Positions 824 through 18,568 of a stretch of 64,000 nt of DNA are shown here, one piece after another; position 1 is the stretch's first letter, and each line of letters starts with the position of its first letter. Location: assembly GCF_009914755.1 (NCBI RefSeq), contig NC_060932.1; one strand, written 5' to 3'. A program made the position numbers and the translations under genes. The notes under the pieces were generated by a model. The model made no database searches. It saw nothing but the letters and a program-made list of their open reading frames with translations, and was not told the origin of the DNA. This stretch comes from the human T2T-CHM13v2.0 reference genome, Homo sapiens.

Positions 824-2122
<1,299 letters not shown>

Positions 2123-2758
2123 TGCAAGCATAACTAGTCTTGTTAGAATCATGGGAAGGAACATTTCAGGCAGATGTCATAGGTCATAAAGTATCTCCAT
2201 AATGGGGAAAGGCTTAGTGTGTTTGAGGAAACCAAAGGTCAGTGTGGCTAGAGCAAAGTGGGAAAAGAGAAGAGCGCTCCAAGATTCTGCCTCCTAAAGA
2301 AGAAAGAGTCAGATGACAAGTACCTTTCCTTGCCCCAAGTGTTGCCTGCCATATCCTGATGCTTTTCTCCCTCTGATGGATGAATGAACTGTACATTTCA
2401 ATTGCAGCACTTCTAAAACACAATACATTCTACTATGTAATGCAGTAGAGAATTAAACTTAGGGAATCTGCTCAGGACCTCAGCATCATTTGGGCCTTTG
2501 AGAAACACTCTCTTCTTGGTCGTTTTTTGACTCTGACTCATCCCGTTTTTTTGAGGATCCAGCTTTTTTTGAGGATAAGTCTTTCCACAATAACACAGCC
2601 ACTCTTATTTTCTCTAGTAAACTTCACCCTAGAGGGGTGACTGTTGGGCCTTCCATGTTTCTAACTGGAAAATCAGAGTGCATTTTTACATACAAAATTG
2701 ATGATTCCTCCCAAATAGAGGGATAAGTCTAACATAATTTGAATGCACTGGAACTTAT

Positions 2759-3256
2759 TGTCAAGTACTATAAATGGTTTGAGATTCTTTCCTACTTGCA
2801 ATCCGGCAACTTAGCTGGCCACCATTTCAGGAAGGTAGGTAAAAGCCATTAGATTCCTTGTTAGAGATAAAGGATGGTTTATTACTTAAAGCAATAGCAT
2901 AGCCAGAATAACAGGATTTTTTTTCTGGTTTCATAAATGCCAGTTCTTAGGCAGCAACACAAAGAGGGCCCAATGACACCTGCATGTGAGTGTGCTGCAT
3001 TATAGGAGAGGAAGCCTAAGCTTTGGGAACCCAAATTTTTTATAATTGATAGTAAGCACATTTGCCCTTTGATCCACAGGGGGGAAAATACCTTTATTAT
3101 ACGAGACAGCAAATATGTCTCTCCTTTGCTCTAGAGAGACGAACTATCTTCCATGGCTATTTTCTGGACAAACATCCTCTAAAAGACAATCCAAAACAAA
3201 GAAAGTCACAAGATATGGATAAATGTGAGAATCCTGTGATGGGTTATCTCCCAACA
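2759..3256 (-). mobile_element. 3' LTR of class III (ERVL) provirus, LTR40-like
   Basis: TG...CA termini (tgtcaag...tctcccaaca); homologous to 8045-8510; abuts the polypurine tract. Confidence 0.85.
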
Positions 3257-3339: not shown

Positions 3340-4050
3340 ACGGAAAGAGGTTGGAACACATTCTTTCAATTTGTCTTGTGTAGTATTTAATTGAGGCTAT
3401 TACCAACAAGATTCCAAGCAGCAGTAGTGACCTCAATCATGGCTCCTGGGATCCCAGGCCTAACCAGCTAAACAAATCCCATAAACCATCAGTTTCTGTA
3501 TCGACCTTTTCACTTCACCCAAGGCATTAATCCAAGTATAGCAGGATGCATTAGCATTTGCAAAGACCCTGCCTTGGCTTGCAAGCAGAAAATGTAGGAC
3601 AATTGTATAATCCATAACAACCCTGGCCAGTGAGCTGAAACTGATTTTATTGTCTTCCAGGGCAAAGTTGGCACCACTGATCACTTCAGCTAAAATCAGG
3701 GACAAATTTTGTATCACCATTTCTAATTGGAGGACTTCCAATGCACAGATAACTGCCCACACGTTGCACATTAAAAAATGTGTCACTTACCCCTCCAGGA
3801 GACTCTTTGGATAAACTAATGAGAGCCTCATTTTGGAGGGATCTTTGAGGTCATCTGTGAACTTTCTTATGACCACCAGAAGGTATGAGTCACCGTGTTT
3901 TCAAGAAGAGAGTAAAAAATGCGTGGCTACACACAAGAAGCACAGTTCTCACGAGGACACAGAGTCCCTGGAAAGAAGGCATTGTTTACATTCGTTGGAG
4001 TGCCCCAGGTAGTACCCACATCAGTTTTTGGGCAAAAGTCCCGGGGCCTC
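3340..4050 (-). pseudogene. Degenerate retroviral env (end of SU and TM, with immunosuppressive domain and membrane anchor)
   Basis: ORF 3460-3786 reads LARVVMDYTIVLHFLLASQGRVFANANASCYTWINALGEV, a decayed ISD plus CX6CC region; a downstream frame reads SLLLLGILLVIASIKYY (transmembrane helix) just before the PPT. Confidence 0.8.
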
Positions 4051-7000
4051 CAGTGTGGCTGCCCAAACGGCTGGTAAGCCCTGGCATTTCCAGATCAGTT
4101 TGAGTAATGCAGTCAATCCTTATTTTGGAGGGACTGCATGAGGTCAGCCAGTCCAATCTGTCCTTTATATTCATGGAGAGCATTTGTCTACCCCCCAGAA
4201 TGCCACAGGGTCAGATGATCAAACTCAAACAGCCACAGCGGAACCTAAATTAAATCAAGAGTGGTGAAGGACCACCACCACCTGACTGCTTAGTGTAGGC
4301 TTCCAAGAATGTGTTTGTGCCATACCCCAAACAATGTGGCCTTACCCTCAGGTAAGCTGTTTGTTCAGCTTCTGGCAGGAGTCCCAGGTCTGGCTTGCAT
4401 GGTGGCCTCTGCATCAGAAATACAGGGTCCTTTCCTTTGTATCCAGTCTATGTCGGTGGATATGTTAGCATGCCTGATACAATGATGGATTCAGGCAGCC
4501 AAGGTAACAATCTGGGTGGTGCAAGCTGAGTCAGCTGCTTACTTCCAGCTGGTCTTACCAGAAAACAGACTCATGTGGTGTATCTAGGTGAGTGGTCCAC
4601 GTGTTTTGATTAGCAGCTGTGAATTACTTTCACAGTTCTTGATCCCAAAGAGGACATATGGAATCTGTCAGTCTGTGGTTTTCCAAGTGGCATGCCAAAC
4701 ACCTAGGCCACTGGGAACAGCCTAAGAGTCAATAAAAATGTAACAAAGTTCACCAAGGACTATACTGGCCAGATCAGTGAGAATGGCCTTGAGCTGTGCC
4801 CACATACTTGAGAGAACCACATTCATTTTCTGCATAGCTGCCACTGAGATTCAACAGCCCCAGCAGCCTTGCTGATATTGTTGTAATTCAACTCAGCCAA
4901 ACCATCAGTGAACCAGCCATAGGCATTTAGGGGACCACTGTGGACTGAAGGCTCCACTGAGGTAGCAGCTTAGCCTCAGGTGAGAGAAAGGGAGACAAAG
5001 TTTCTACCAAAAAGATAGTTACCATGTTGTATGTAAAGTTGCTGCCAGGATGCTAAGATACTGCTCAGGCCAGCCTGGATGCATTCATAAATATGCTGCT
5101 TCCTTTTGCCAGCCAAGGCTCGGTGGGCCCTTCCCAACTTGTCATTGATTCCAAACAGACCCGCCCGCTGCCCAATGTGGATATCAGACCAGCAAGTCAC
5201 AAGGCCTCAGTAGGTCATGTTTTTTATGTCAGAAGCTGCTTTATAAAGGGCGTTATAATTTGCTACTTGGAGCCTCTGGTAGAGAAGCTGTCTGCATTCA
5301 CCGTTCCCATTGGGGTCAGGACTTACCCTCTCCCTAACTGCATCGTCTGTCTCAAGAAGAGGACAAGTCCAGACCCTAATGGGCACCTCCGAATGGAGGC
5401 AGCTTCTCTTTATCAGAGGCACAAAGTAGCAAATCACTGGTCACTCAAGATGGAGTTAAGCCTGTGAGTTCCCAAAATGGAAAGCGTATTTCAGTTCGCT
5501 GAACAGCTTTCAGTGGAGACTGTTGGTTTGGGCCCTATGCAAATTATGATTTTTGGATAAGCCAATATAAAGGACAAGTGGAATGCCCAAGAGAGGTACA
5601 TTCTGTCTCCAATTCCTAAAGAGTCCAGCAATGTGGCATCTTTTTCTTTTTTTCTTTTTTTTGGCTTTGAGGTCTGATGAGACAGCAGTCTTCCTTGATG
5701 CCAGAGGGACTTAGCACTGTGAATCCACCCACATGGTTCCATAAAAAACTTTACTTGGCAAGCAGTTCTTTTGCATTTTTTCAGGATTTATCAGTTACTT
5801 TTGCTAGAGGAAGTGTGATAATGCCACAGTCAGGGCCACTGAGGATGAACATTCTGACTTGGCAACATGATACAGATAGGAAAAACATTGGAAATTAAAG
5901 AACAGAAGCACTTGTGCTAAATCCTGACCTGCTCCTTGTGGCAAATGGCAGGGAAGTTTAGGCAACAGTCGGGGAGTACAGCAACCATACATTGGAGACC
6001 TTACCACATGAATGAGAACTATTCTAGATGCCTTGGTGCTGGGCCTATGTCAAAATGGGTTTCAGCAGTGTCTAAGACAACACAGCAAGTGCTATCAATC
6101 TGTGTAATGAATTCAATCACCTTTGCAACATCCGCAACGGCTGACGTGTTGGGAGCAATAACTGAATTCAAGTTGATGACTCCTGTGAAAATCCAGTCCT
6201 GTTAGGTTTTTTTTTCCACCGACTATATAAGGCTGTTGTATTGGGCTAATGCATCTCTTACTATTCTTTCTACCTTTAAGTCCTTCAACAGGCTATGATC
6301 TTCCTTTCCCTAAGATGCTATACTATGTCCGATAGAACACCTAGGAGAGGAAAGAAACATAAGGTACGGAGCTATTTCTATGTCCCACTAGGGGTTCTCT
6401 ACATGTGGCTCTTCTCAGTCAAAAACATTGCCTCTGGCAATATGGGACAAAGAAGTACAATCATATAACACATCAATGTCTACCGTACATTCATATGTGG
6501 AAGCATCAACAACAGAACATTGAATAGACCCTTAAGGTCATGTTAACCTTCTTTTCGCACAGTGAACACTTCCCCAACCTCATGAGCTGAATCTAGACCC
6601 ATTTTCTTTCACGGGTCTGCATAGGCTAGTTCCCTACGTGCCCATATCCAAAAAGCCATAAAAGTTTGAATCCTTCCCCTTTTCAAAATTCCCAAACTTA
6701 TTCCAGTAGGTGGATATAACCTTTGATTCCACCTTAGAAACAGACTCAACCCCACCTCTAATCTTCTGTCTCCATAAAGTCGCTGAGATCGGGGTAGAGA
6801 AAGAGTGAAGGATAGTACAGAGAAAGAGGGAAGCTCTGTGTAAGCGACTTCACATTTACCTTCAGTTTTGAGCAGCGTGGCGGCAGCTTTGGTTCAACCA
6901 AAGGAACTGCAAATTTGTTCATCCCAGTCAGTACTCTCCTGGGTGTGTGGGGGGGGGTCCTCTTATTTACACCATAAGAACCCTATAACTCATCAGCAGT

Positions 7001-9564: not shown

Positions 9565-10716
9565 TGGATACATTTTTACTATTTTCTTAGAGCTTAAATC
9601 CTGAGAGCATTTTTGGGAGATTAGTGGTATGGAGTTGAGGGGCTGTAACAGGAACAGTTTAAAGAATGCATCAATGTGTGGGGTGGCTGAGAGCATGTCT
9701 GCTGAAGCTGTCATATTTGTGTGATGAATGAGTTTCACAAACTGTTTGGAGAATTCATTGGGCTCCATTGCTATTTTTGTTAAAACTTTTTAATTAGTAG
9801 CCTTGAGAAAAAAAAAGAGAGAAATACAAAGTGACATGTCCATTTTTGTATCTTGTGTTTTTTCGTAAATGTGATGGCTCAGTGTCTGTGGATGGCTGGG
9901 TAAATTGGAGGCAGTATATGGCAGGCAACTTGATCAAAAACCCAGAGAAGCATAAGGATGAAAGCACCATGAGGGTTGTGAGAGCTGTATGGGGCTGGGT
10001 GTGGCAGTCCATGTAGAACGTACCCTTGCTGGGCTCAGAGGGGTTCTAGAGCTGCAAGAGAACCTCCTGATACCATGGGATGAGTTTTCTCTCATTTGGA
10101 TGCTCTTGTAGCCGGGTATAAATAGGCAATGCTGTTCAAGAAATTGAATCAACAAGGATCCTGAAGGCTATCGTGGGGATTTTGAAATGGGAGAGAGGAT
10201 TCAGAAATCCTGGTGAAAAGGCATGAATAGCTGCAATTAGATTTGCTTTTAGTCTCTTAGCTTTTCCTATCAGGTCCTTTGGGACCTTCACTTCTGACCA
10301 GCTGTTCTTCGAGAAGAATCTTGGCCAATATTTAAATGGGAGAGGGTGTGGAGCTGGGAAGCTGCCGTGCTGTTACACGTGACTCTTGTTCCGTTCATGC
10401 GCCTGTGAAGACACACCACGTAAGAGTAGAAAGAGGGATGCCCGAGACTTTGGTTTTGGAAGATGATTCATTAAACATATTTTAATCTGCAATAGAGAGT
10501 CGTGCTGTAAGAGTCACTGGGTGAAATCCCACCCACATTATGGGCATGAAGAGCCCTAAATAATTATCAGGAAATTAACATGCCTTCTTTCTTGTCAAAA
10601 CATGAGCTCTTAATAAATGTTTTGCTTGTGCATGGTGCTTAAGTAAATTACACTGAGATTGAGCTACTCCTCAAAGATTAATTATGAAAATTGTATATAG
10701 GAAGAAATATAAATAA

Positions 10717-10944
<228 letters not shown>

Positions 10945-11848
10945 TAAGCAAACACAGGATTAATTACTTTTTTTTTTTTGCCAGAAATATGCCCCTACTG
11001 GTCATATAGTCCATCTGTGACCAGTCTAAAGAACATTAATCAGATAAAAGAAAAAATTCATAGGTAACTCAAATGAAGCATATCTTCTCAAAAGCAAAGC
11101 CATTTGTGTAATCAAGTACCCAGAACGTGGCTAAATGTAGCAGAAAATCACTAACTGCGTTCATACTCGGTGGTCATTCCAGCAGAAAAGTTTTCTTAAA
11201 AAAATCAAGAGGCATATACAATTAGTAGGTGTATACTATGTCACCTGCAACAACTGCGGCATAAAAAGGATTTATTTTAGGTAAACGTGTGATTCAGTAA
11301 ACAACTTATGGTAATATTGGCTCAAAGAAGACAGAGAATTAAATATAAGACCAAGGTCAGTGTTGATGTTCACTCCTCTCTTCTAAAAGTTTACCTTCAT
11401 GAGGTTAGTTACCTTCATAATGTTGGTCATCATAACCAGTGCACGAAGTGAACAGTGAGGGGTGAGTCATTTCCAAATTGCCTAAAACGTGCTTTATTAA
11501 AACAAATAGAATTTATCTTTCCGGCAATGCAATTTTGTGGCAATTTTTCATCATTCTTTCCCAGGAAAAAAAATTAAAGCCTAATATTGCATTGAAATGC
11601 ACACATATCTTAGTAAATTTAGTACGATCATCCTAATTAGACAGATAAGCATACATATGATGACAAAAATCAGTAACTTCTTTCAACATGCGCTATAATT
11701 TCTGAAATCAAAACATTTCCAATTGAAGATGAGAAAGGTCACATTAAGCAAGAACTAAAGAATTTAATATGACAACAAAATATATTTTTCTTATGTAAGG
11801 TTGAAATACAAGCAGAAAATTTCAGTAGCATAAAAGGTTAAATAGATT

Positions 11849-12559
11849 CATTTTTACATTTTACCTTAAGTTCTGGGATACACGTGCTGAACGTGCAGGT
11901 TTGTTACATGGGTATACACCTGCCATGGTGGTTTGCTGTACCTATCAACCTGTCATGTAGGTTTTAAGCCCTGCATGCATTAGGTATTTGTTCTAATGCT
12001 CTCCTCCTCTTTTGCCTCACCCCCTGGCAGGCCCCAGTGGTGTTCCCCTCCCTGTGTCTGTGTTGTTCAACTCCTGCTTATGAGTGAGAACATGGGGTGT
12101 TTGGTTTTCTGTCCCTGTGTTAATTTTATGAGAATGATGGTTTCCAGCTTCATCCATGTCCCTGCAAAGGACATGAACTCATTCTTTTTTATGTCTGCAT
12201 AGTATTCCATGGTGTATATGTGCCACATTTTCTTTATCCAGTCTATCATCGATGGGCATTTGGGTTGCTTCCAAGTCTTTGCTATTGTAATTAATGCTGC
12301 AATAAACATACGTGTGCATGTGTCTTTATAGTAGAATGATTTATAATCCTTTGGGTATATATTCAGTAACGGGATTGCTGGGTCAAATGGTATTTCTGGT
12401 TCTAGATCCTTCAGGAATCACCAGACTATCTTCCACAACGGTTGAACTAATTTATACTCCCACCAACAGTGTAAAAGTGTTCCTATTTCTCCACATCCTC
12501 TCCAGCATCTGTTGTTTCCTGACTTTTTAATGATCACCATTCTAACTGGTGTGAGATGG
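11849..12559 (-). mobile_element. 5'-truncated L1PA 3' end
   Basis: L1 3'UTR and ORF2 C-terminus (ORF 12067-12309, KTWKQPKCPSMIDWIKKMW); 13-bp TSD ggttaaatagatt at 11836-11848 and 12558-12570. Confidence 0.95.
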
Positions 12560-12587
12560 TTAAATAGATTTTTAAAAAGTTTACACT

Positions 12588-14192
12588 CTTTACTCTGTTT
12601 ATAGTTTGTTTTGCTGTGCAGAAGCTCTTTAATTATGTCCTACTTGTCAATTTTTGTTTTATTTACAATTGCTTTTGAGGACTGAGTCATAAATTATTTC
12701 TTAAGGCTGATGTCCTGACTGGTGTTTTTTAGGTTTTCTTCTAGGATTTTCATAGTTTGAGGTCTTACATTTACATTTTTCATTCATCTTGAGGTAAGTT
12801 TTGTATGTGGTGAGAGGTTGCGGTTATTCTTCTGCATATGGCTAGCCAGCTATTCCAACACCATTTATTGAATAGGGAGTACTTTCCTCACAGCTTATTT
12901 TTGCTGATTCTGTCAAAGATAAGATGGCTATAGGTGCACACCTTTATTACTGAGTTCTTTATTCTGTTCCATTGGTCTATGTGTCTGCTTTTGTACCAGT
13001 ACCATGTGGTTTTGATTATTATCACCTCAGAGTATACTTTGAAGTTGGGTATTGTGATGCCTCCTCCAACTTTGCTCTTTTTGCTTAGGATTGTTTTGGC
13101 TATGTTGATTCTCCTTTGGTTCTATGTGAATTTTGAACTAGTTTTTTTTCTTCTAATTCTGTGAAGAATGAAATTGGTAGTTTGATAGGAATGGCACTGA
13201 ATTTGTAGATTGCTTTGGGCAGTATGGCCATTTTAACAATATTGATTCTTCCAGTCCATGAGCATGGAATTTTTTTATTTGTTTGTGTCATCTGTATTTT
13301 CTTTCGACAGTGTTTTGTAGTTGTTCTTGCAGAAATCTTTCACTTCCTCGGTTAGATGTATTCCTAGGTATTTTATTTTTGTGTGTGTGGCAACTGTAAA
13401 TGAGAACGTGTTCCTGATTTGGTTCTGGGCTTGAACGTTATTGGTGTATGGAAATGCTACTGATTTTCGTACAAAGATTTTGTATCTGAAACTTTACTGA
13501 AGTTGTTTATCAGGATCCAGGAGTCTTTCGGTGGAGTCTTTAGGGTTTTCTAGGTATATAATCATTAAGTCTGCAAAGAGAGATAATTTGACTTCTCCTT
13601 TCCTATTTGGGTGCCTTGAATTTCTTTATCTTGCCTGATTACTCTGGCAAAGACTTCCAGTACTATGTTGAATAAAAGTGGTTGAGAGTGGGCATCTTTG
13701 TCTTGCTGTAGATCTTAGGGAAATGCATTCAGCTTTTGCCTGTTTAGTATGATGTTGGCTCTGGGTTTGTCATAGATGGATCTTATTATTTTGATGTATG
13801 TTCCTTTGATGCCTAGTTTGTTGATGGTTTATTATGAAAGGATGTTGGATTTTATTAAGAGCCTTTTCTATGCCTATTGAGATGATCACGTGATTTTTGT
13901 TTTCAGTTCTGTTTATGTGACGAATTTACTGATTTGCATATGTTGAACCAATTTTGCATCCCAGGAGTGAAGCCTACTTGATCGTGGTAAATTAACTTTC
14001 TGATGTGCTACTGGATTCAGTTTGCTAGGATTTTTACATCTATTTTCATCATAGATATTGGCCTGTGGTTTTCCTTTTTTGTTGTGTCCTGTGAGGTTTT
14101 TGTTTCAGGGTGAAGCTGGCTTGATAGAATGAGTTAGGGAGGAGTCCCTCCTCCTAGATTTTTTTGGAATAGTTTCAGTAGAATTAGTACCA
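12588..14192 (-). mobile_element. L1PB/L1MA-type ORF2 segment (inverted arm of the composite insertion)
   Basis: ORF2 RT-region sequence on the minus strand ([24 protein letters not shown]). Confidence 0.9.
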
Positions 14193-14224
14193 CCTGGTAC
14201 TACCTAGAGGATCAAGGTATGTTT

Positions 14225-15603
14225 GAATTATGGTTTGAAATCATGTTTACTTAAGTGTCAAATTTACAAAAACAAAAAATCAGTTATGAGCCAGAAGTTG
14301 TACTGCTGAAGTTCTCTGGTGTGATCATTCTTACCCATGTCATATCCCCTTCCTTAAAGTTGAGGACGGATGTTAAAAGGTTCAACAAAGCTGAGCTGTA
14401 CTCAGCTTTGGAGGTGAAGGTAAACTCCATGGCTAGATGAGCAGTTTTAGCACATAGCATCAGTTGATGTGGAGTCACTGTCATCATTTTTATAAAGATT
14501 CCGTCTTTTATAAATGGCTTCAATAACATTTTGCTTGTTTGCCAATTCACCTCCAGGTGGCAGTCTGGGGATGTTCTCATTGGCTAATGTGTACAACACA
14601 TGGACTAAGTCAGGGACACCTTCCCCCTGCTTCTTTATGATTTCTTCTACTCTGCATTCCAGGTACTTGCCCAACTCTGCCTCCTTCTTCGCTGCTTCTG
14701 GTGATACTTTGGGTGCATTTGGAAACCAGAGAAAAAATCACACACATGTTGTCTTGACTTCCCTTATGCAAACAGGTGTCGACTATTTCATTGTAAACTT
14801 TCTCAGGGTCATCAGTGACTTCAAGCCTGGATCTTACAAAATCACAGAGCTCTTCATTTCCCATAACATCCCAGATACTATCACATGCAAGGATAATGAA
14901 GTGATCATCTTCTTCAGATCTTTCAGTGTCATGGACTTCAGGCTCTGGTGAGACAAGCTGCCCAGTAGGACCTTTCCCATGGATACATTTGTAATCAAAA
15001 TCCCCAAGGGCTTTGGATACAGCCAGAGAGGCTTTCACATGCTAAAGCATTACAGAGCCACCTGCATTCTGAATTCATTCTTTTTCTAGCGGATTTGCAA
15101 TTTGTGAAGAAATGAACTTTCCTGTTCCTACAAAGTAAACGTCTAGAGTCTTCATAGTTAATGAAATAATTATGTTGGGGAGAAAGTAAGACGCTTACAT
15201 CTGTTGACCCACTTCTATCTGCACCATGTTTCTTCTCTGACATAACTCTCGTGTTCATCAATCTCCAGGAAACCTGTTCTGATTCCATTCTTTACATTTT
15301 CCAAAGAAGGTGCTCCTGCAGACCCTGTAAATCCTGGTTATCGGCGATGTGATCTAACAAATGCTCACAGCAGTATTTGGCAACCTGAGAACCAGGATGC
15401 CCGTTATACACAGCAAAGAATGACCACCTTTCAAGTCCACTTGGCAAAGCAATCACAGCCGTATGTGCATCCTCCATTTCAATACGTCAACCTTGCATGC
15501 TGCGTAGCTCGTATCGCAACTAATTACCCCACCCCCAGGCATTATGCTCTTCCATCTTTGCTTGTCTAAAGATGGTCCCATTATGTCATAATCCTGTAGG
15601 TCT
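14225..15603 (-). pseudogene. PPM1A: Processed pseudogene of protein phosphatase 1A (PP2C-alpha); CDS 15581 to 14447, frameshifted; includes about 20 nt of 5'UTR and about 220 nt of 3'UTR
   Basis: Intronless; peptides [120 protein letters not shown] and C-terminus [15 protein letters not shown] match PPM1A; multiple stops and frameshifts. The symbol names the parent gene. Confidence 0.95.
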
Positions 15604-16333
15604 CTATTAAAAGTCAAAAATCATCAACAAAACCAAAACAAGTCAACAACCACAACAACAACAACAAAACAAGGCTGTGGAGAGAAGGCAATGCTTATAC
15701 ACTGTTGGTGGGAATGTAAATGGATTCAGCCACTGTGGAAAGCAAAGAAATTAAAGCTTTTAATGTCTCAAAGAATGTAAAACAGAACTACCGTTCGACC
15801 CAGAAATCCCACTACTGAGTATATATCCAAAGGAAAATAAATCGTTCTCCCAAAAAGACATATACTTTTATGTTCATAACAGTGCTGTTTACTATAGCAC
15901 AGTAATTAACCTGGGTGCCCATCCGTGGTGGATTGGATAAAGAAAATGTGGTACATATGCATGTTGGACTACTAAACACCATACAAAAGAACAAAAGCAT
16001 GTCCTTTGCAGCAATGTGGATGCAGCTGGAGGCCATTATCCCAAACAAATTAACACAGGAACAGAAAAACAAATACTGCATGTTCTCATTTATAAGTGGG
16101 AGCTAAACACTGAGAACTCATGAACATAAATATGGCAACAATAGACACTGGGGACTCACAGAATGCGGATGAAGGAAGGAAAGCAAGAGGTGCAAACCTA
16201 ACTTTTGGGTACTACATTCTATATCTGGGGGACAGAGCATTTGCATCCCCAACCTTAGCATCGTGTGATATAACCATGTCACATACCTGTATATGTACCT
16301 ATTGAATCTAAAATGAAAGTTGAAATTATTTTT
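15604..16333 (+). mobile_element. L1PB/L1MA-type 3' end (sense arm of the composite insertion)
   Basis: ORF2 C-terminus (MSFAAMWMQLEAIIPNKLTQEQK) and 3'UTR ending tgaatctaaaatgaaagttgaaatt. Confidence 0.9.
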
Positions 16334-17261
16334 AAAAACTTTATGCTAGTATAATTTTAAAGCATCCTACATATACTAGCTTTTGAACATATTATTACAA
16401 TACTCATATCATTTTATTGTAGAGATTAGGGAAGCTTTGTTTTCTGACCAGTATTAGAAAAGATTTGAGTAACAATTACCTGCAATCTTTAAGCAAACTT
16501 CTTTCACCTGGTATAATGTGTTCCTTAAGAAACTTAAGAATTTTTCAAAGACTTTTTGTTTCAAATATTGGTTATTATTTTAATACTAAATGTTATTTTA
16601 ATATATTAAACATAAAAAGAATATAATTGTTTAAAAAATGCTCTCTCCAGAGCACTAGGAGATAAAATGATACATTTACTTATGTAACACTTTCTTAATA
16701 TTCCTTTGCATTTTATTACTATCAGTGAGAGTTTTTGATATTGGACAAAGAAAGCTTAAGGGGTTAGAAAAGTTCTCTCAATATATATCTCTTGTTGGCC
16801 AGTTCTGCTTCCAGCCTTTTAATGAGACTGTCCAGAATTATTCTCTTACCGAACATCTTTTCCTACTCTCAGACCTGCCATCGTTACATCTTCCACGAAG
16901 CTAAGAACATGGAAGACAGAAGCAGCCCAAGCATAAGTCTTTTATAGTTCCCAGGAGTAAGAGTGCCAGACATGTAGCAGGCAATTTGCCCAGTGGCTTC
17001 TCCATTTTTGACAATTTCTAAGCTCAGCTGTCAGTCAGTGTTAGCTTTGGCCTGCTGCCACCCTAGAAATTCTGCCTCATTCTGAGCTCTTGGTCACCTG
17101 GATTGCTAATTGTGCTTCCAGGGATTCTGAAGCTCCTCAACCTACACAGGTTGTCTTTTTTTAAAAAAAGATAACATGTATTTATAGAGTACAAACAAAT
17201 TATACACACACACATATAATTAAGATATATATATAATTATAGCTATTTTGTATAATATGTA

Positions 17262-18076
17262 CAGTAGTACCCCTGTAACTAAACCCAAGTTTGGCTCCTC
17301 ACTGCTTGAAAGGCCAAACTCAAGAGACAAGGGTTGGTGGGAGGAAAAGCACGTTTATTCAGAAAGCCAGCAAACCCAGATGATGGCACACTATCATGCT
17401 AAAGTACCATCTTAAGTCATTCCAAATTTTTGGCTCTTTTTATGTCAACGGCAGGAGGAAGATGGAGGGCTCAGGGCAAGAGGTAACTGATGACTGCAGA
17501 TATCTGGGCACCAGCGAGGGTGTGAGGATGTTGGGAACTTCTTTTCCCTGGTCAGGTCACAGTATTTCCATAAATCTTTAACAAAACGTAGTTACTTGTC
17601 CTTTAAACTCAGAGTTCTTTCTGAAAAACTACATGATTGCTGTTTTTGTGTATGATCTCACTGCTCTATAATTATCCTTGCCTATCTGTGGGAATAGGTA
17701 AAGGTCCCTTAAACAAAAATGAAGTTAGTTATGTTAGTTTTTTGCTGCTTTGGTGTTACACCTATTTGAGGTGGATACATTCCAAGACCCCCCCTGTAGA
17801 TGCCTGAAACTGTAGATTGTATCTAGTCCTATATATGTTGTTTTTCCTATACATATATACTTAAAAGAAAGTCTAGTTTATCAATTAGGCACAGTAAGAG
17901 ATCAGCAGCAACAATAATAAAACAGAATAATTATAACAATATGCTGTAATAAAAGTTTTATGAATGTAGTTTCTCTCTCTGTCTCAAAATATCTGATTGT
18001 ACTGTATTCACCTATTTTCAGTGACCAAGGGTAACCAAAACTGTAGCAAGTGCAACCACGGATAAAAGAACGACTG
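17262..18076 (+). mobile_element. MER44A-like Tigger-family DNA transposon (interrupted by an LTR)
   Basis: TA-flanked ends cagtagtacccc...gactg; internal gatacattccaagacccc...gatgcctgaaac and aattaggcacagtaagaga. Confidence 0.8.
17274..17760 (-). mobile_element. Solo ERV1-type LTR (family not assigned)
   Basis: Inverted termini tgtaac...gttaca; tttatt (AATAAA on minus) near 17354; splits the MER44 element. Confidence 0.75.
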
Positions 18077-18195
18077 TAATTATATTACTTAACAGTTCTC
18101 AACATTTGGCTTTCTTTACACTTGGCAATGCCAGACTTCTCGTTGCCTTAAGGAAAACATTCAGTCCTACATCCCTCCTATTTTTTAAAATCCTA

Positions 18196-18568
18196 ATGCT
18201 TTTCAAACTCTAATATGCATACAAATTACCTGGAGAATGCACCTTGTTAAACCTCCTAGTTAAAATGCAAGTTCCAGTTAAATAGTTCTGAGACAGACAG
18301 AGATTCTGAATTTCTTACATGCTGTTGGATAATGTCTGTGCTGCTGGTTCAGGGATCACGCTTTTGGTAGCAAGCCGTAAACAATGGTTCTCATAGTGTG
18401 TCCTTGGACCAGCAGCAGAAGTATCACCTGCAGACTTGGGGGAAACGTAAATTCTCAGGTCCCACTCCAGAACAACTGAATCAGAAATTTGGGGGTGGGG
18501 CTCAGAAATCCATGATTTAATAGGTCGTTCAGGTGATTCTGCTGCCCTTTGTAGCTAAAGAACCCCTG
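18196..18568. mobile_element. Two adjacent MER5 (hAT-Charlie) elements
   Basis: ttcaaactctaatatgcat...tgctgctggttcagggatcac, followed by caatggttctc...ggaccagcagc...actgaatcagaaa...agaacccctg. Confidence 0.7.

What the first reader, a model, noticed from the sequence alone, without database searches (positions are those of the whole stretch)
12574..16347. Tripartite chimeric retro-insertion: a full PPM1A coding sequence captured inside the inversion junction of a twin-primed L1
Seen: antisense L1 ORF2 (12588-14192), antisense PPM1A cDNA (14225-15603), then the sense L1 3' end (15604-16333). The two L1 arms have twin-priming geometry: the left end of the inverted arm maps roughly 0.3 kb upstream of where the sense arm starts. 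The PPM1A copy stops about 220 nt into its 3'UTR with no poly(A) and no TSD of its own. One TSD pair brackets the whole unit: aaaaagtttacact (12574-12587) and aaaaactttatgct (16334-16347), 11/14 identical, with the ca/tg mismatch matching opposite-strand decay of one CpG, at a TT/AAAA endonuclease site. Known: twin priming and L1 template switching (for example U6/L1 chimeras) are each described. Inference: the internally primed cDNA switched from L1 RNA to PPM1A mRNA, so a whole CDS was retroposed without using its poly(A). That combination is unusual and is a poly(A)-independent route to retrogenes.
Basis: partly seen in the sequence, partly recalled or inferred. Interest (0 to 1): 0.8.

Follow-up and report, generated by a model that had tools for sequence, protein, structure and literature searches.

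The report
PPM1A copy inside an inverted L1
An old, dead copy of the PPM1A gene, lacking a poly(A) tail, sits exactly at the point where an ancient L1 insertion flips orientation, which is best explained by one messy L1 insertion event of a kind already seen in cell experiments.

Summary
The layout is: antisense L1 ORF2 arm (12588-14192), antisense intron-less PPM1A copy (14225-15601), then sense L1 3' arm (15604-16333). A 14-nt repeat (11/14 identical) at a TTTTT/AAAAA site brackets the whole unit.

Both arms map to one L1 family in twin-priming order, with a gap of about 264 nt, and have similar divergence (0.139 vs 0.156). The PPM1A copy holds 20 nt of 5'UTR, all 382 codons and 227 nt of 3'UTR. 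It has no poly(A) and no private TSD, and it is dead (5 frameshifts, 4 premature stops).

New points:
- The L1/PPM1A junction is a 32-nt filler, not a clean switch. It contains an exact 15-nt inverted copy of the retrocopy's own 5' end.
- The copy starts at the first base of the parent's ATG exon.
- A younger L1 with its own 13-bp TSD abuts the left side.
- The L1 arms are about 1.5x more diverged than the PPM1A copy.

One composite twin-priming event with a second RNA is the best reading (about 0.75). Comparable de novo events are in print (PMC11702581), so this is a new fossil example of a known kind. Orthologous empty sites could not be checked.

The parts
12574..12587 (+). Left copy of the target-site duplication (AAAAAGTTTACACT), directly after TTTTT. 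Its last 2 nt (CT) can also be read as L1, giving a 2-nt microhomology.
12588..14192 (-). Inverted arm of an old L1. It covers roughly ORF2p residues 494-1026 by extrapolation, including the RT region. It is broken by many stops and has no 3' end or tail of its own.
14193..14201 (.). 9-nt filler CCTGGTACT of uncertain origin. CTGGTA occurs in reference L1 copies just beyond the arm's end.
14202..14216 (+). Exact 15-nt copy of the first 15 bases of the parent PPM1A ATG-bearing exon, in the opposite orientation to the main retrocopy.
14217..14224 (.). 8-nt filler GTATGTTT, absent from the parent loci examined. GTATGT occurs in reference L1 copy L038 near the arm's end.
14225..15601 (-). Intron-less PPM1A retrocopy (annotated PPM1AP1). 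It holds 20 nt of 5'UTR from the ATG exon, the CDS (ATG at 15581-15579, stop at 14449-14447) and 227 parental nt of 3'UTR. No poly(A). Five frameshifting indels and 4 premature stops.
15602..15603 (.). 2-nt junction 'ct' between the PPM1A 5' end and the sense L1 arm. It is ambiguous: filler, L1, or the complement of the parent intron's terminal AG.
15604..16333 (+). Sense 3' arm of the same old L1 family, running from about ORF2p residue 1120 through the 3'UTR to the family's natural end ...GTTGAAATTATTTTT. It contains an A/C-rich expansion at about 15625-15668.
16334..16347 (+). Right copy of the target-site duplication (AAAAACTTTATGCT). Its five A's are all that could be a poly(A) tail.

Best explanation
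One composite L1-mediated retrotransposition event in an ancestor produced the whole 12574-16347 unit.

Shown or directly readable:
- L1 endonuclease-type target TTTTT/AAAAA.
- A 14-nt TSD.
- A sense L1 3' arm ending at the family's natural 3' end next to the right TSD copy.
- An inverted L1 arm starting right after the left TSD copy, from L1 positions upstream of the sense arm.
- A spliced PPM1A cDNA between the arms, in the same cDNA direction as the inverted arm.

Inferred sequence of events:
1. The bottom strand primed on the L1 tail (primary RT).
2. The top-strand 3' end primed inside the same L1 RNA about 264 nt further upstream (twin priming) and copied about 1.6 kb.
3. The growing end then acquired a PPM1A cDNA running from 3'UTR nt 227 to the first base of the ATG exon. 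[quoted passage not shown]
4. The end was then joined to the primary cDNA.

The exact 15-nt inverted copy of the cDNA's 5' terminus at the L1/PPM1A junction shows that the 3' end of a PPM1A cDNA, or the 5' end of the mRNA, was briefly used as a template as well. That means at least three template changes or joins. The PPM1A coding sequence was therefore retroposed without using its poly(A). It has decayed neutrally ever since.
For: - Geometry: on reference copy L038 the inverted arm is 1564-3190 and the sense arm about 3452-4156. ORF2p residues run 664-695 and 850-924 in the inverted arm and 1132-1156 in the sense arm.
- Arm age: against the same 12 reference copies the branch lengths are 0.139 (inverted) and 0.156 (sense).
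- TSD: 11/14 at exactly the two outer boundaries. Such matches are rare in the window (25 in 128,000 strand positions). Two of the three mismatches fit one CpG.
- The sense arm reaches the family's natural 3' end. By my count, 11 of 29 reference copies read ATTATTT... there, and most of the others read a variant of it.
- PPM1A is spliced: five exon blocks. It stops at 3'UTR nt 227 where the parent is not A-rich. It has no T/A run and no private TSD.
- No further PPM1A sequence lies in the window flanks, although 1.5 kb more of parental 3'UTR was searched.
- PPM1A lies exactly at the orientation switch. For a random later hit within the 2.3 kb of L1, that has about 1% chance (my estimate).
- 15-mer: exact, anchored at exon nt 1. 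0 of 300 shuffles of the filler reached 15 (maximum 11).
- Precedent: de novo events of the same logic (PMC11702581 v1, section 7).
Against: - The PPM1A copy differs from its parent at 119 of 1382 aligned sites (8.6%; K2P 0.092). The arms differ from well-conserved columns of 12 reference copies at 12.2% and 13.2%. Transversions show the same ratio, 5.1-6.0% against 3.5%. By my estimate the difference is about 3 standard errors. It needs either a divergent L1 source RNA or a later arrival of PPM1A. The PPM1A value does lie inside the range of the reference copies (6.9-12.8%).
- The gap of about 264 nt between the arms' inner L1 coordinates is much larger than the 1-10 bp reported for 32 de novo inverted insertions (PMC11702581).
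- The TSD is only 11/14, and 5 of its 14 bases are A's next to an L1 tail.
- The tail is at most 5 A's.
- No orthologous empty site was examined.
- The path that made the 15-mer and the two short fillers is not determined.
Confidence: 0.75

Rival explanations
1. Two events. An older twin-primed (5'-inverted) L1 was already in place. Later a tail-less PPM1A cDNA fragment was captured at a DNA break that happened to fall at the inversion junction, as an endonuclease-independent, repair-mediated insertion.
For: PPM1A is about 1.5x less diverged than the L1 arms (8.6% vs 12.2-13.2%; transversions 3.5% vs 5.1-6.0%). A capture at a break would also lack poly(A) and TSD. Scrambled filler at one junction is typical of end joining.
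Against: The break would have to hit the orientation switch to within a few nt of a 2.3-kb element, about 1% by my estimate. No L1 bases are visibly duplicated or split on either side. The divergence gap can also arise from a non-consensus L1 source, and the PPM1A value lies inside the range of the family's reference copies.
Confidence: 0.12
2. One event but no template switch. A pre-formed hybrid RNA, PPM1A (exon start to 3'UTR nt 227) fused to the L1 3' portion, was retrotransposed with twin priming on that single RNA. The hybrid would have arisen by RNA ligation, by aberrant splicing, or by read-through into an L1 that sat in the 3'UTR of a lost PPM1A allele.
For: It would give the same order and orientations. 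The parental base after the break point is GT, a minimal donor-like dinucleotide. Spliced or ligated L1 chimeras are documented (PMC13174262 section 13; PMC6789731, search listing and abstract only).
Against: Today's PPM1A 3'UTR is uninterrupted at that point. No L1 resembling the arms lies in the 60 kb upstream of and including intron 1. The junction is not a clean exon-like join but 32 nt of filler with an inverted PPM1A 15-mer. This model does not explain the 15-mer.
Confidence: 0.06
3. The arms are unrelated L1 fragments brought together by later rearrangement, such as deletion or inversion between neighbouring L1s. The flanking 14-mer similarity is then chance.
For: The TSD is imperfect (11/14) and A-rich. 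The arms leave a 264-nt gap. The region has had other L1 activity, shown by the younger L1 at 11849-12557.
Against: The arms share one family, similar divergence, and the 5'-inverted/3'-sense order expected of twin priming. The inverted arm has no 3' end or tail of its own. The 14-mer match sits exactly at both outer boundaries at a TTTTT/AAAAA site, p about 1e-3 by my estimate.
Confidence: 0.05

Closest known systems
Twin-primed (5'-inverted) L1 insertions (Ostertag & Kazazian 2001). That paper is not held. The model is taken as described in PMC2837659 and PMC2912911 (passages).
   Same: One TSD pair bounds two fragments of one L1 in opposite orientations. The upstream L1 part is inverted. 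There is an internal L1 deletion, an endonuclease-type target, and short microhomology where the top strand primed.
   Different: A 1.38-kb cDNA of an unrelated mRNA plus 32 nt of filler sits between the arms. The internal L1 gap of about 264 nt is larger than the 1-10 bp typical of de novo events.
De novo non-canonical L1-mediated insertions in L1-expressing cells (Mendez-Dorantes et al., bioRxiv 2024 version 1, PMC11702581, section 7 read in full).
   Same: [quoted passage not shown] It also describes nine insertions built from two RNAs, and one inverted insertion (SEMA3C) with two extra RT pieces at its internal junction. This is the logic proposed here.
   Different: Those are somatic events in cultured cells, with mRNA arms. 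Here the arms are L1, the middle piece is a whole coding sequence, and the event is an old fixed germline insertion. The 2026 version of that preprint no longer carries these passages in its main text.
Chimeric retrogenes by RT template switching (Buzdin et al. 2002/2003). Seen only as cited in PMC4476161 and PMC2912911; not read.
   Same: Copies of two different RNAs are fused, share one TSD, and were made in one reverse-transcription run. The non-L1 part needs no poly(A).
   Different: Classical chimeras have both parts in the orientation of the L1 3' end and are fused directly. Here the mRNA is fused to the inverted, tail-less arm, through a filler.
Antisense snRNA/L1 and mRNA/L1 chimeras attributed to twin priming (Doucet et al. 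2015, PMC4476161, passages; Law & Burns 2026, PMC13174262, section 13 and passages).
   Same: A non-L1 RNA copy lies antisense to a sense L1 3' part, inside one TSD, 3'-truncated and tail-less.
   Different: There the foreign RNA itself is primed by the top strand. Here an inverted L1 arm lies between the TSD and the foreign cDNA. Law & Burns excluded L1s with 5' inversions from their screen. PPM1A, PPM1AP1 and TUSC3 do not occur in the 4 supplementary files held.
Canonical processed pseudogene.
   Same: Intron-less copy of a spliced mRNA, decaying neutrally (codon-position mismatches 31/32/37).
   Different: No poly(A) and no TSD of its own. The 3' end lies inside the 3'UTR at a site that is not A-rich.

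Membership tests
Twin-primed (5'-inverted) L1 insertion | Two fragments of the same L1 in opposite orientation, with the upstream L1 part inverted | tested here: met
   Inverted arm = L038 1564-3190 and sense arm = about 3452-4156. ORF2p residues 664-924 in the inverted arm against 1132-1156 in the sense arm.
Twin-primed (5'-inverted) L1 insertion | Both fragments have the same subfamily and age | tested here: met
   Branch lengths 0.139 and 0.156 against the same 12 reference copies. Private differences 12.2% and 13.2%. The subfamily name was not determined because no RepeatMasker or Dfam was available.
Twin-primed (5'-inverted) L1 insertion | Inner breakpoints close together in L1 coordinates (small deletion or duplication) | tested here: inconclusive
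   The gap is about 264 nt and about 280 nt by ORF2p residues. An internal deletion fits the model (PMC2837659), but de novo events show 1-10 bp.
Twin-primed (5'-inverted) L1 insertion | One TSD pair of about 12-18 bp bounding the whole unit at an L1 endonuclease-type site | tested here: met
   14 nt, 11/14 identical (13/14 if the CpG decay is allowed), at TTTTT/AAAAA. Chance about 1e-3 by my estimate.
Twin-primed (5'-inverted) L1 insertion | Microhomology between the top-strand target end and the internal L1 priming site | tested here: met
   The 2 nt CT at 12586-12587 can be read as either TSD or L1. This is weak because it is so short.
Twin-primed (5'-inverted) L1 insertion | Poly(A) tail after the sense arm | tested here: inconclusive
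   Only AAAAA follows the L1 end, and it is shared with the TSD. An old tail may have shrunk.
Template-switch chimeric retrogene | Copies of two RNAs fused in the same direction of reverse transcription inside one TSD | tested here: met
   The inverted L1 arm and the PPM1A copy are both cDNA-sense on the + strand. They share one TSD.
Template-switch chimeric retrogene | Direct fusion or a few bases of microhomology at the switch point | tested here: not met
   There are 32 nt between the last clear L1 base (14192) and the first PPM1A 3'UTR base (14225), including an inverted PPM1A 15-mer. A GAATT shared by PPM1A and reference L1 copies is only a possibility.
Canonical processed pseudogene | Intron-less copy of a spliced mRNA | tested here: met
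   Five exon blocks are collinear and abutting.
Canonical processed pseudogene | 3' poly(A) and its own TSD | tested here: not met
   There is no A/T run at 14193-14224, and the longest flanking direct repeat is 5 nt.
Single insertion event (any model) | All-or-none presence at orthologous loci, with one TSD copy at the empty site | not testable with these tools
   No other vertebrate genome is held. The own-genome search is the only eukaryotic source.

The most novel reading that the evidence does not exclude
The locus is a germline fossil of an interrupted twin-priming resolution. Two separate PPM1A-derived pieces, the 1.38-kb cDNA and the inverted 15-mer, both end at the very first base of the ATG-bearing exon. 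On this reading a discrete PPM1A RNA whose 5' end lay at that exon boundary was in the L1 complex, and its end was copied twice, once as a run-off and once as a brief pairing of two cDNA 3' ends. Capture of whole coding sequences at L1 inversion junctions would then be a recurrent poly(A)-independent route to retrocopies. Current catalogues would miss it because they drop 5'-inverted L1s (Law & Burns).
Probability: 0.25. Interest if true: 0.5.

Novelty: new member of a known kind. Interest (0 to 1): 0.3.

Why it matters
The locus is a well-preserved example, tens of millions of years old, showing that L1 reverse transcription can carry a complete protein-coding sequence into the genome without using the mRNA's poly(A) tail. 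The sequence ended up between the two arms of a twin-primed L1. The same kind of event has only recently been seen in cultured cells. Its junctions record intermediate steps: a 2-nt overlap at the priming site, a 32-nt scrambled filler with an inverted 15-mer, and a 2-nt join.

The practical value is modest. It warns that screens for L1 chimeras and retrocopies that require poly(A) or a private TSD, or that discard 5'-inverted L1s, will miss such copies. It also explains the odd structure of the annotated pseudogene PPM1AP1. The copy itself is dead, so there is no functional consequence beyond its exonisation in alternative TUSC3 transcripts.

Tried and rejected
1. The sense L1 arm as an exonised antisense L1 from PPM1A intron 1, spliced to the ATG exon. 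Rejected. The 60 kb upstream of that exon (C14:54429001-54489000) hold no L1 resembling the arms. The only hits were a 60-nt, 77% match to the younger L1 and two L1 pieces upstream of the CpG island. The arm also ends at the family's natural 3' end next to the TSD.
2. The 9-nt filler CCTGGTACT as the end of PPM1A exon 1. It has no exact occurrence in those 60 kb.
3. A circular-RNA or rolling-circle template for the 15-mer. Rejected on orientation: a cDNA crossing a back-splice would give the antisense 15-mer, and the sense one is observed (reasoning).
4. An L1 insertion into a pre-existing complete PPM1A pseudogene. Rejected. No further PPM1A 3'UTR or other PPM1A sequence lies within 10000-18500 of the window.
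5. The left-hand L1 (11849-12557) as a continuation of the inverted arm with an internal deletion. Rejected. It has its own exact 13-bp TSD (shuffles mean 0.2) and is much younger, 87-90% identical to other copies against 75-79% for the arms.
6. A 19-nt exact match of 14201-14219 at C13:43422084-43422102. Judged chance. The reversed-pattern control gave as many <=3-mismatch hits (4) as the pattern gave non-self hits (4), and nothing else at that locus resembles PPM1A.
7. Pfam on short L1 reading frames gave no L1 family: 0 families for the 4 L1 frames among 8 proteins, and none for 6 more (one irrelevant DUF4320 at E 0.1). The PDB sequence search with 13913-14104 found nothing. Other frames did match ORF2p.
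The Ostertag & Kazazian paper is not held.
9. Searches for PPM1AP1 found 0 papers. A search for PPM1A with retrocopy terms listed 10 papers, none with PPM1A. bioRxiv supplements were closed, so figures S7-S10 of PMC11702581 were not seen.


Full report
**What is there**

The window is human chr8 (T2T), in a TUSC3 intron.

The stretch 15603-14225 on the minus strand aligns to five collinear exon blocks of one gene on contig C14 (54488976-54499003) at 85-93% identity, with no introns. Its translations are PP2C and PP2C_C by Pfam. This is the annotated pseudogene PPM1AP1. Apart from PPM1AP1, the parent PPM1A on C14 and a 67% match on C2 (recalled to be the paralogue PPM1B), no other copy was found in the genome.

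Using the parent's splice sites, the copy holds 20 nt of 5'UTR, all 382 codons (ATG kept, stop kept) and 227 nt of 3'UTR. It carries five frameshifting indels and four premature stops. Its mismatches fall evenly on codon positions (31/32/37), so it has decayed neutrally from the start.

**The L1 arms**

- Frames of the left block match human LINE-1 ORF2p residues 664-695 and 850-924 on the minus strand.
- The right block matches residues 1132-1156 on the plus strand.
- The right block has more than 10,000 first-look relatives in the genome, the best at 75-77% identity.
- Against full reference copies fetched from the genome, the inverted arm (14195-12586) covers L038 1564-3190. The sense arm runs from about L038 3452 (my count) to 4156. 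About 264 nt of L1 are therefore missing between the arms' inner coordinates.
- The sense arm reaches the family's natural end ...GTTGAAATTATTTTT. By my count 11 of 29 reference copies show the same ATTATTT continuation, and most others show variants. So 16328-16333 is L1, and only five A's follow.
- A least-squares star decomposition of pairwise K2P distances to the same 12 reference copies gives 0.139 for the inverted arm and 0.156 for the sense arm. The reference copies average 0.11.

The two arms thus behave as one element, in the order and orientation that twin priming predicts.

**The flanks**

AAAAAGTTTACACT (12574-12587) and AAAAACTTTATGCT (16334-16347) abut the two outer L1 boundaries, and the left copy follows TTTTT. 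Matches with up to 3 mismatches are rare in the window: 25 on both strands, against a shuffle mean of 20.4. By my estimate, finding one within a few bases of the predicted place has p of about 1e-3. The CA/TG pair fits one decayed CpG. The last two bases of the left copy can also be read as L1, which gives a 2-nt microhomology at the internal priming site.

Immediately to the left lies a different, younger L1 3' fragment (11849-12557):
- It covers ORF2p residues 1160-1273 at 12067-12417.
- It is 87-90% identical to other copies.
- It has its own exact 13-bp TSD at 11836-11848 and 12558-12570.

It re-used the same palindromic TTTTT/AAAAA site on the other strand and is not part of the unit.

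*The junction is not clean.* Between the last clear L1 base (14192) and the first PPM1A 3'UTR base (14225) lie 32 nt: CCTGGTACT, then ACCTAGAGGATCAAG, then GTATGTTT. The middle 15-mer is an exact copy of the first 15 bases of the parent's ATG-bearing exon, in the opposite orientation to the main copy. The main copy's own version (15601-15587) now has three mismatches. None of 300 shuffles of the filler gave an exact match of 15 to that exon (maximum 11).

*The copy starts at an exon boundary.* The main copy begins at the very first base of that exon. Both PPM1A-derived pieces therefore end at the same nucleotide, with no exon-1 sequence present. I cannot explain this boundary. An alternative start site, a strong RT stop before the GC-rich first exon (CpG island at C14:54455001-54457000), or a processed RNA are all possible.

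*The other fillers.* The 6-mers CTGGTA and GTATGT occur, in swapped order, in reference L1 copies just beyond the arm's end. The fillers may therefore be scrambled L1, but that is weak evidence.

**Mechanism**

The best reading is one composite event. Primary TPRT started on the L1 tail at the right. The top strand primed inside the same L1 RNA at the left. A PPM1A cDNA was then added before the two ends were joined.

[quoted passage not shown] The 15-mer, however, has the polarity of DNA copied from the 3' end of a PPM1A cDNA, or on the other strand from the 5' end of the mRNA. So at least one further template change is required. The candidate paths are:
- an abortive pairing of two cDNA 3' ends through ACCT/AGGT, followed by re-initiation at 3'UTR nt 227;
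- a switch by the primary RT, followed by flipping of the cDNA flap;
- capture of a separately made cDNA.

I cannot decide between these.

Version 1 of Mendez-Dorantes et al. (PMC11702581, section 7) reports de novo insertions with exactly these ingredients: twin priming with a switch of the secondary RT, two-RNA insertions, and extra RT pieces at an inversion junction. Doucet et al. 2015 and Law & Burns 2026 describe antisense snRNA/L1 and mRNA/L1 chimeras attributed to twin priming. Law & Burns excluded 5'-inverted L1s, and their held supplements do not list PPM1A.

**Evidence against, told in full**

- The PPM1A copy differs from its parent at 119 of 1382 sites (8.6%; 49 transversions). The arms differ from columns that are at least 70% conserved among 12 reference copies at 77 of 632 (12.2%) and 77 of 582 (13.2%), with 32 and 35 transversions.
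- The excess is not confined to one substitution class. The share of the window's derived states also seen in another copy is similar to that of the three reference copies printed per arm (0.45 and 0.49 against 0.37-0.68).
- So either the L1 RNA came from a source a few percent away from the centre of my reference set, or PPM1A arrived later. The reference set was chosen as best matches and may mix subfamilies.
- The PPM1A value lies inside the range of the reference copies (6.9-12.8%). I therefore treat this as a caveat and not a refutation.
- Against a later arrival stands the geometry. The block sits exactly at the orientation switch (about 1% for a random hit within the L1, by my estimate). 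It has no private TSD or tail.
- The 264-nt gap is larger than in de novo events, the TSD is imperfect, and the tail is minimal.
- Orthologous loci could not be examined with the tools at hand.

**Verdict**

The locus is a new, old and fixed example of a known kind of complex L1-mediated insertion, and not a new mechanism. No paper naming PPM1AP1 was found.

With a recalled neutral rate of about 2e-9 per site per year, 8.6-13% divergence would put the event very roughly 40-60 million years ago. That figure rests on recall and on no call.

Noticed in passing
window 11836-12570: A younger antisense L1 3' fragment (11849-12557) with a decayed T-rich tail at its left end and an exact 13-bp TSD (11836-11848 and 12558-12570). 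It inserted at the same palindromic TTTTT/AAAAA site (12569-12578) that the old composite insertion used, but on the opposite strand. Its 5' truncation point lies only about 25 nt upstream, in L1 coordinates, of the start of the old sense arm.
   Followed up: yes
window 14663-14735 and 14738-17968 (+): The hub annotation lists these as exons of alternative TUSC3 transcripts. They consist of the antisense PPM1A copy and the sense L1 arm. A polypyrimidine tract and CAG precede 14663, so the composite insertion has been exonised as an alternative 3' exon.
   Followed up: partly
window about 15625-15668: An A/C-rich, microsatellite-like expansion of about 33 nt inside the old sense L1 arm, absent from 12 reference copies.
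   Followed up: partly
G000:C13:43422084-43422102 (locus L056): A 19-nt exact match to window 14201-14219, which is the 15-mer plus 1 and 3 flanking bases. It lies next to an unrelated L1 fragment. Judged coincidental.
   Followed up: yes
window 10726-10896: A 172-nt stretch that is 85% identical to a stretch of the PPM1A locus downstream of its ATG exon (L002 3304-3475 = L005 364-535). It is presumably a shared interspersed repeat and is not part of the retrocopy.
   Followed up: no
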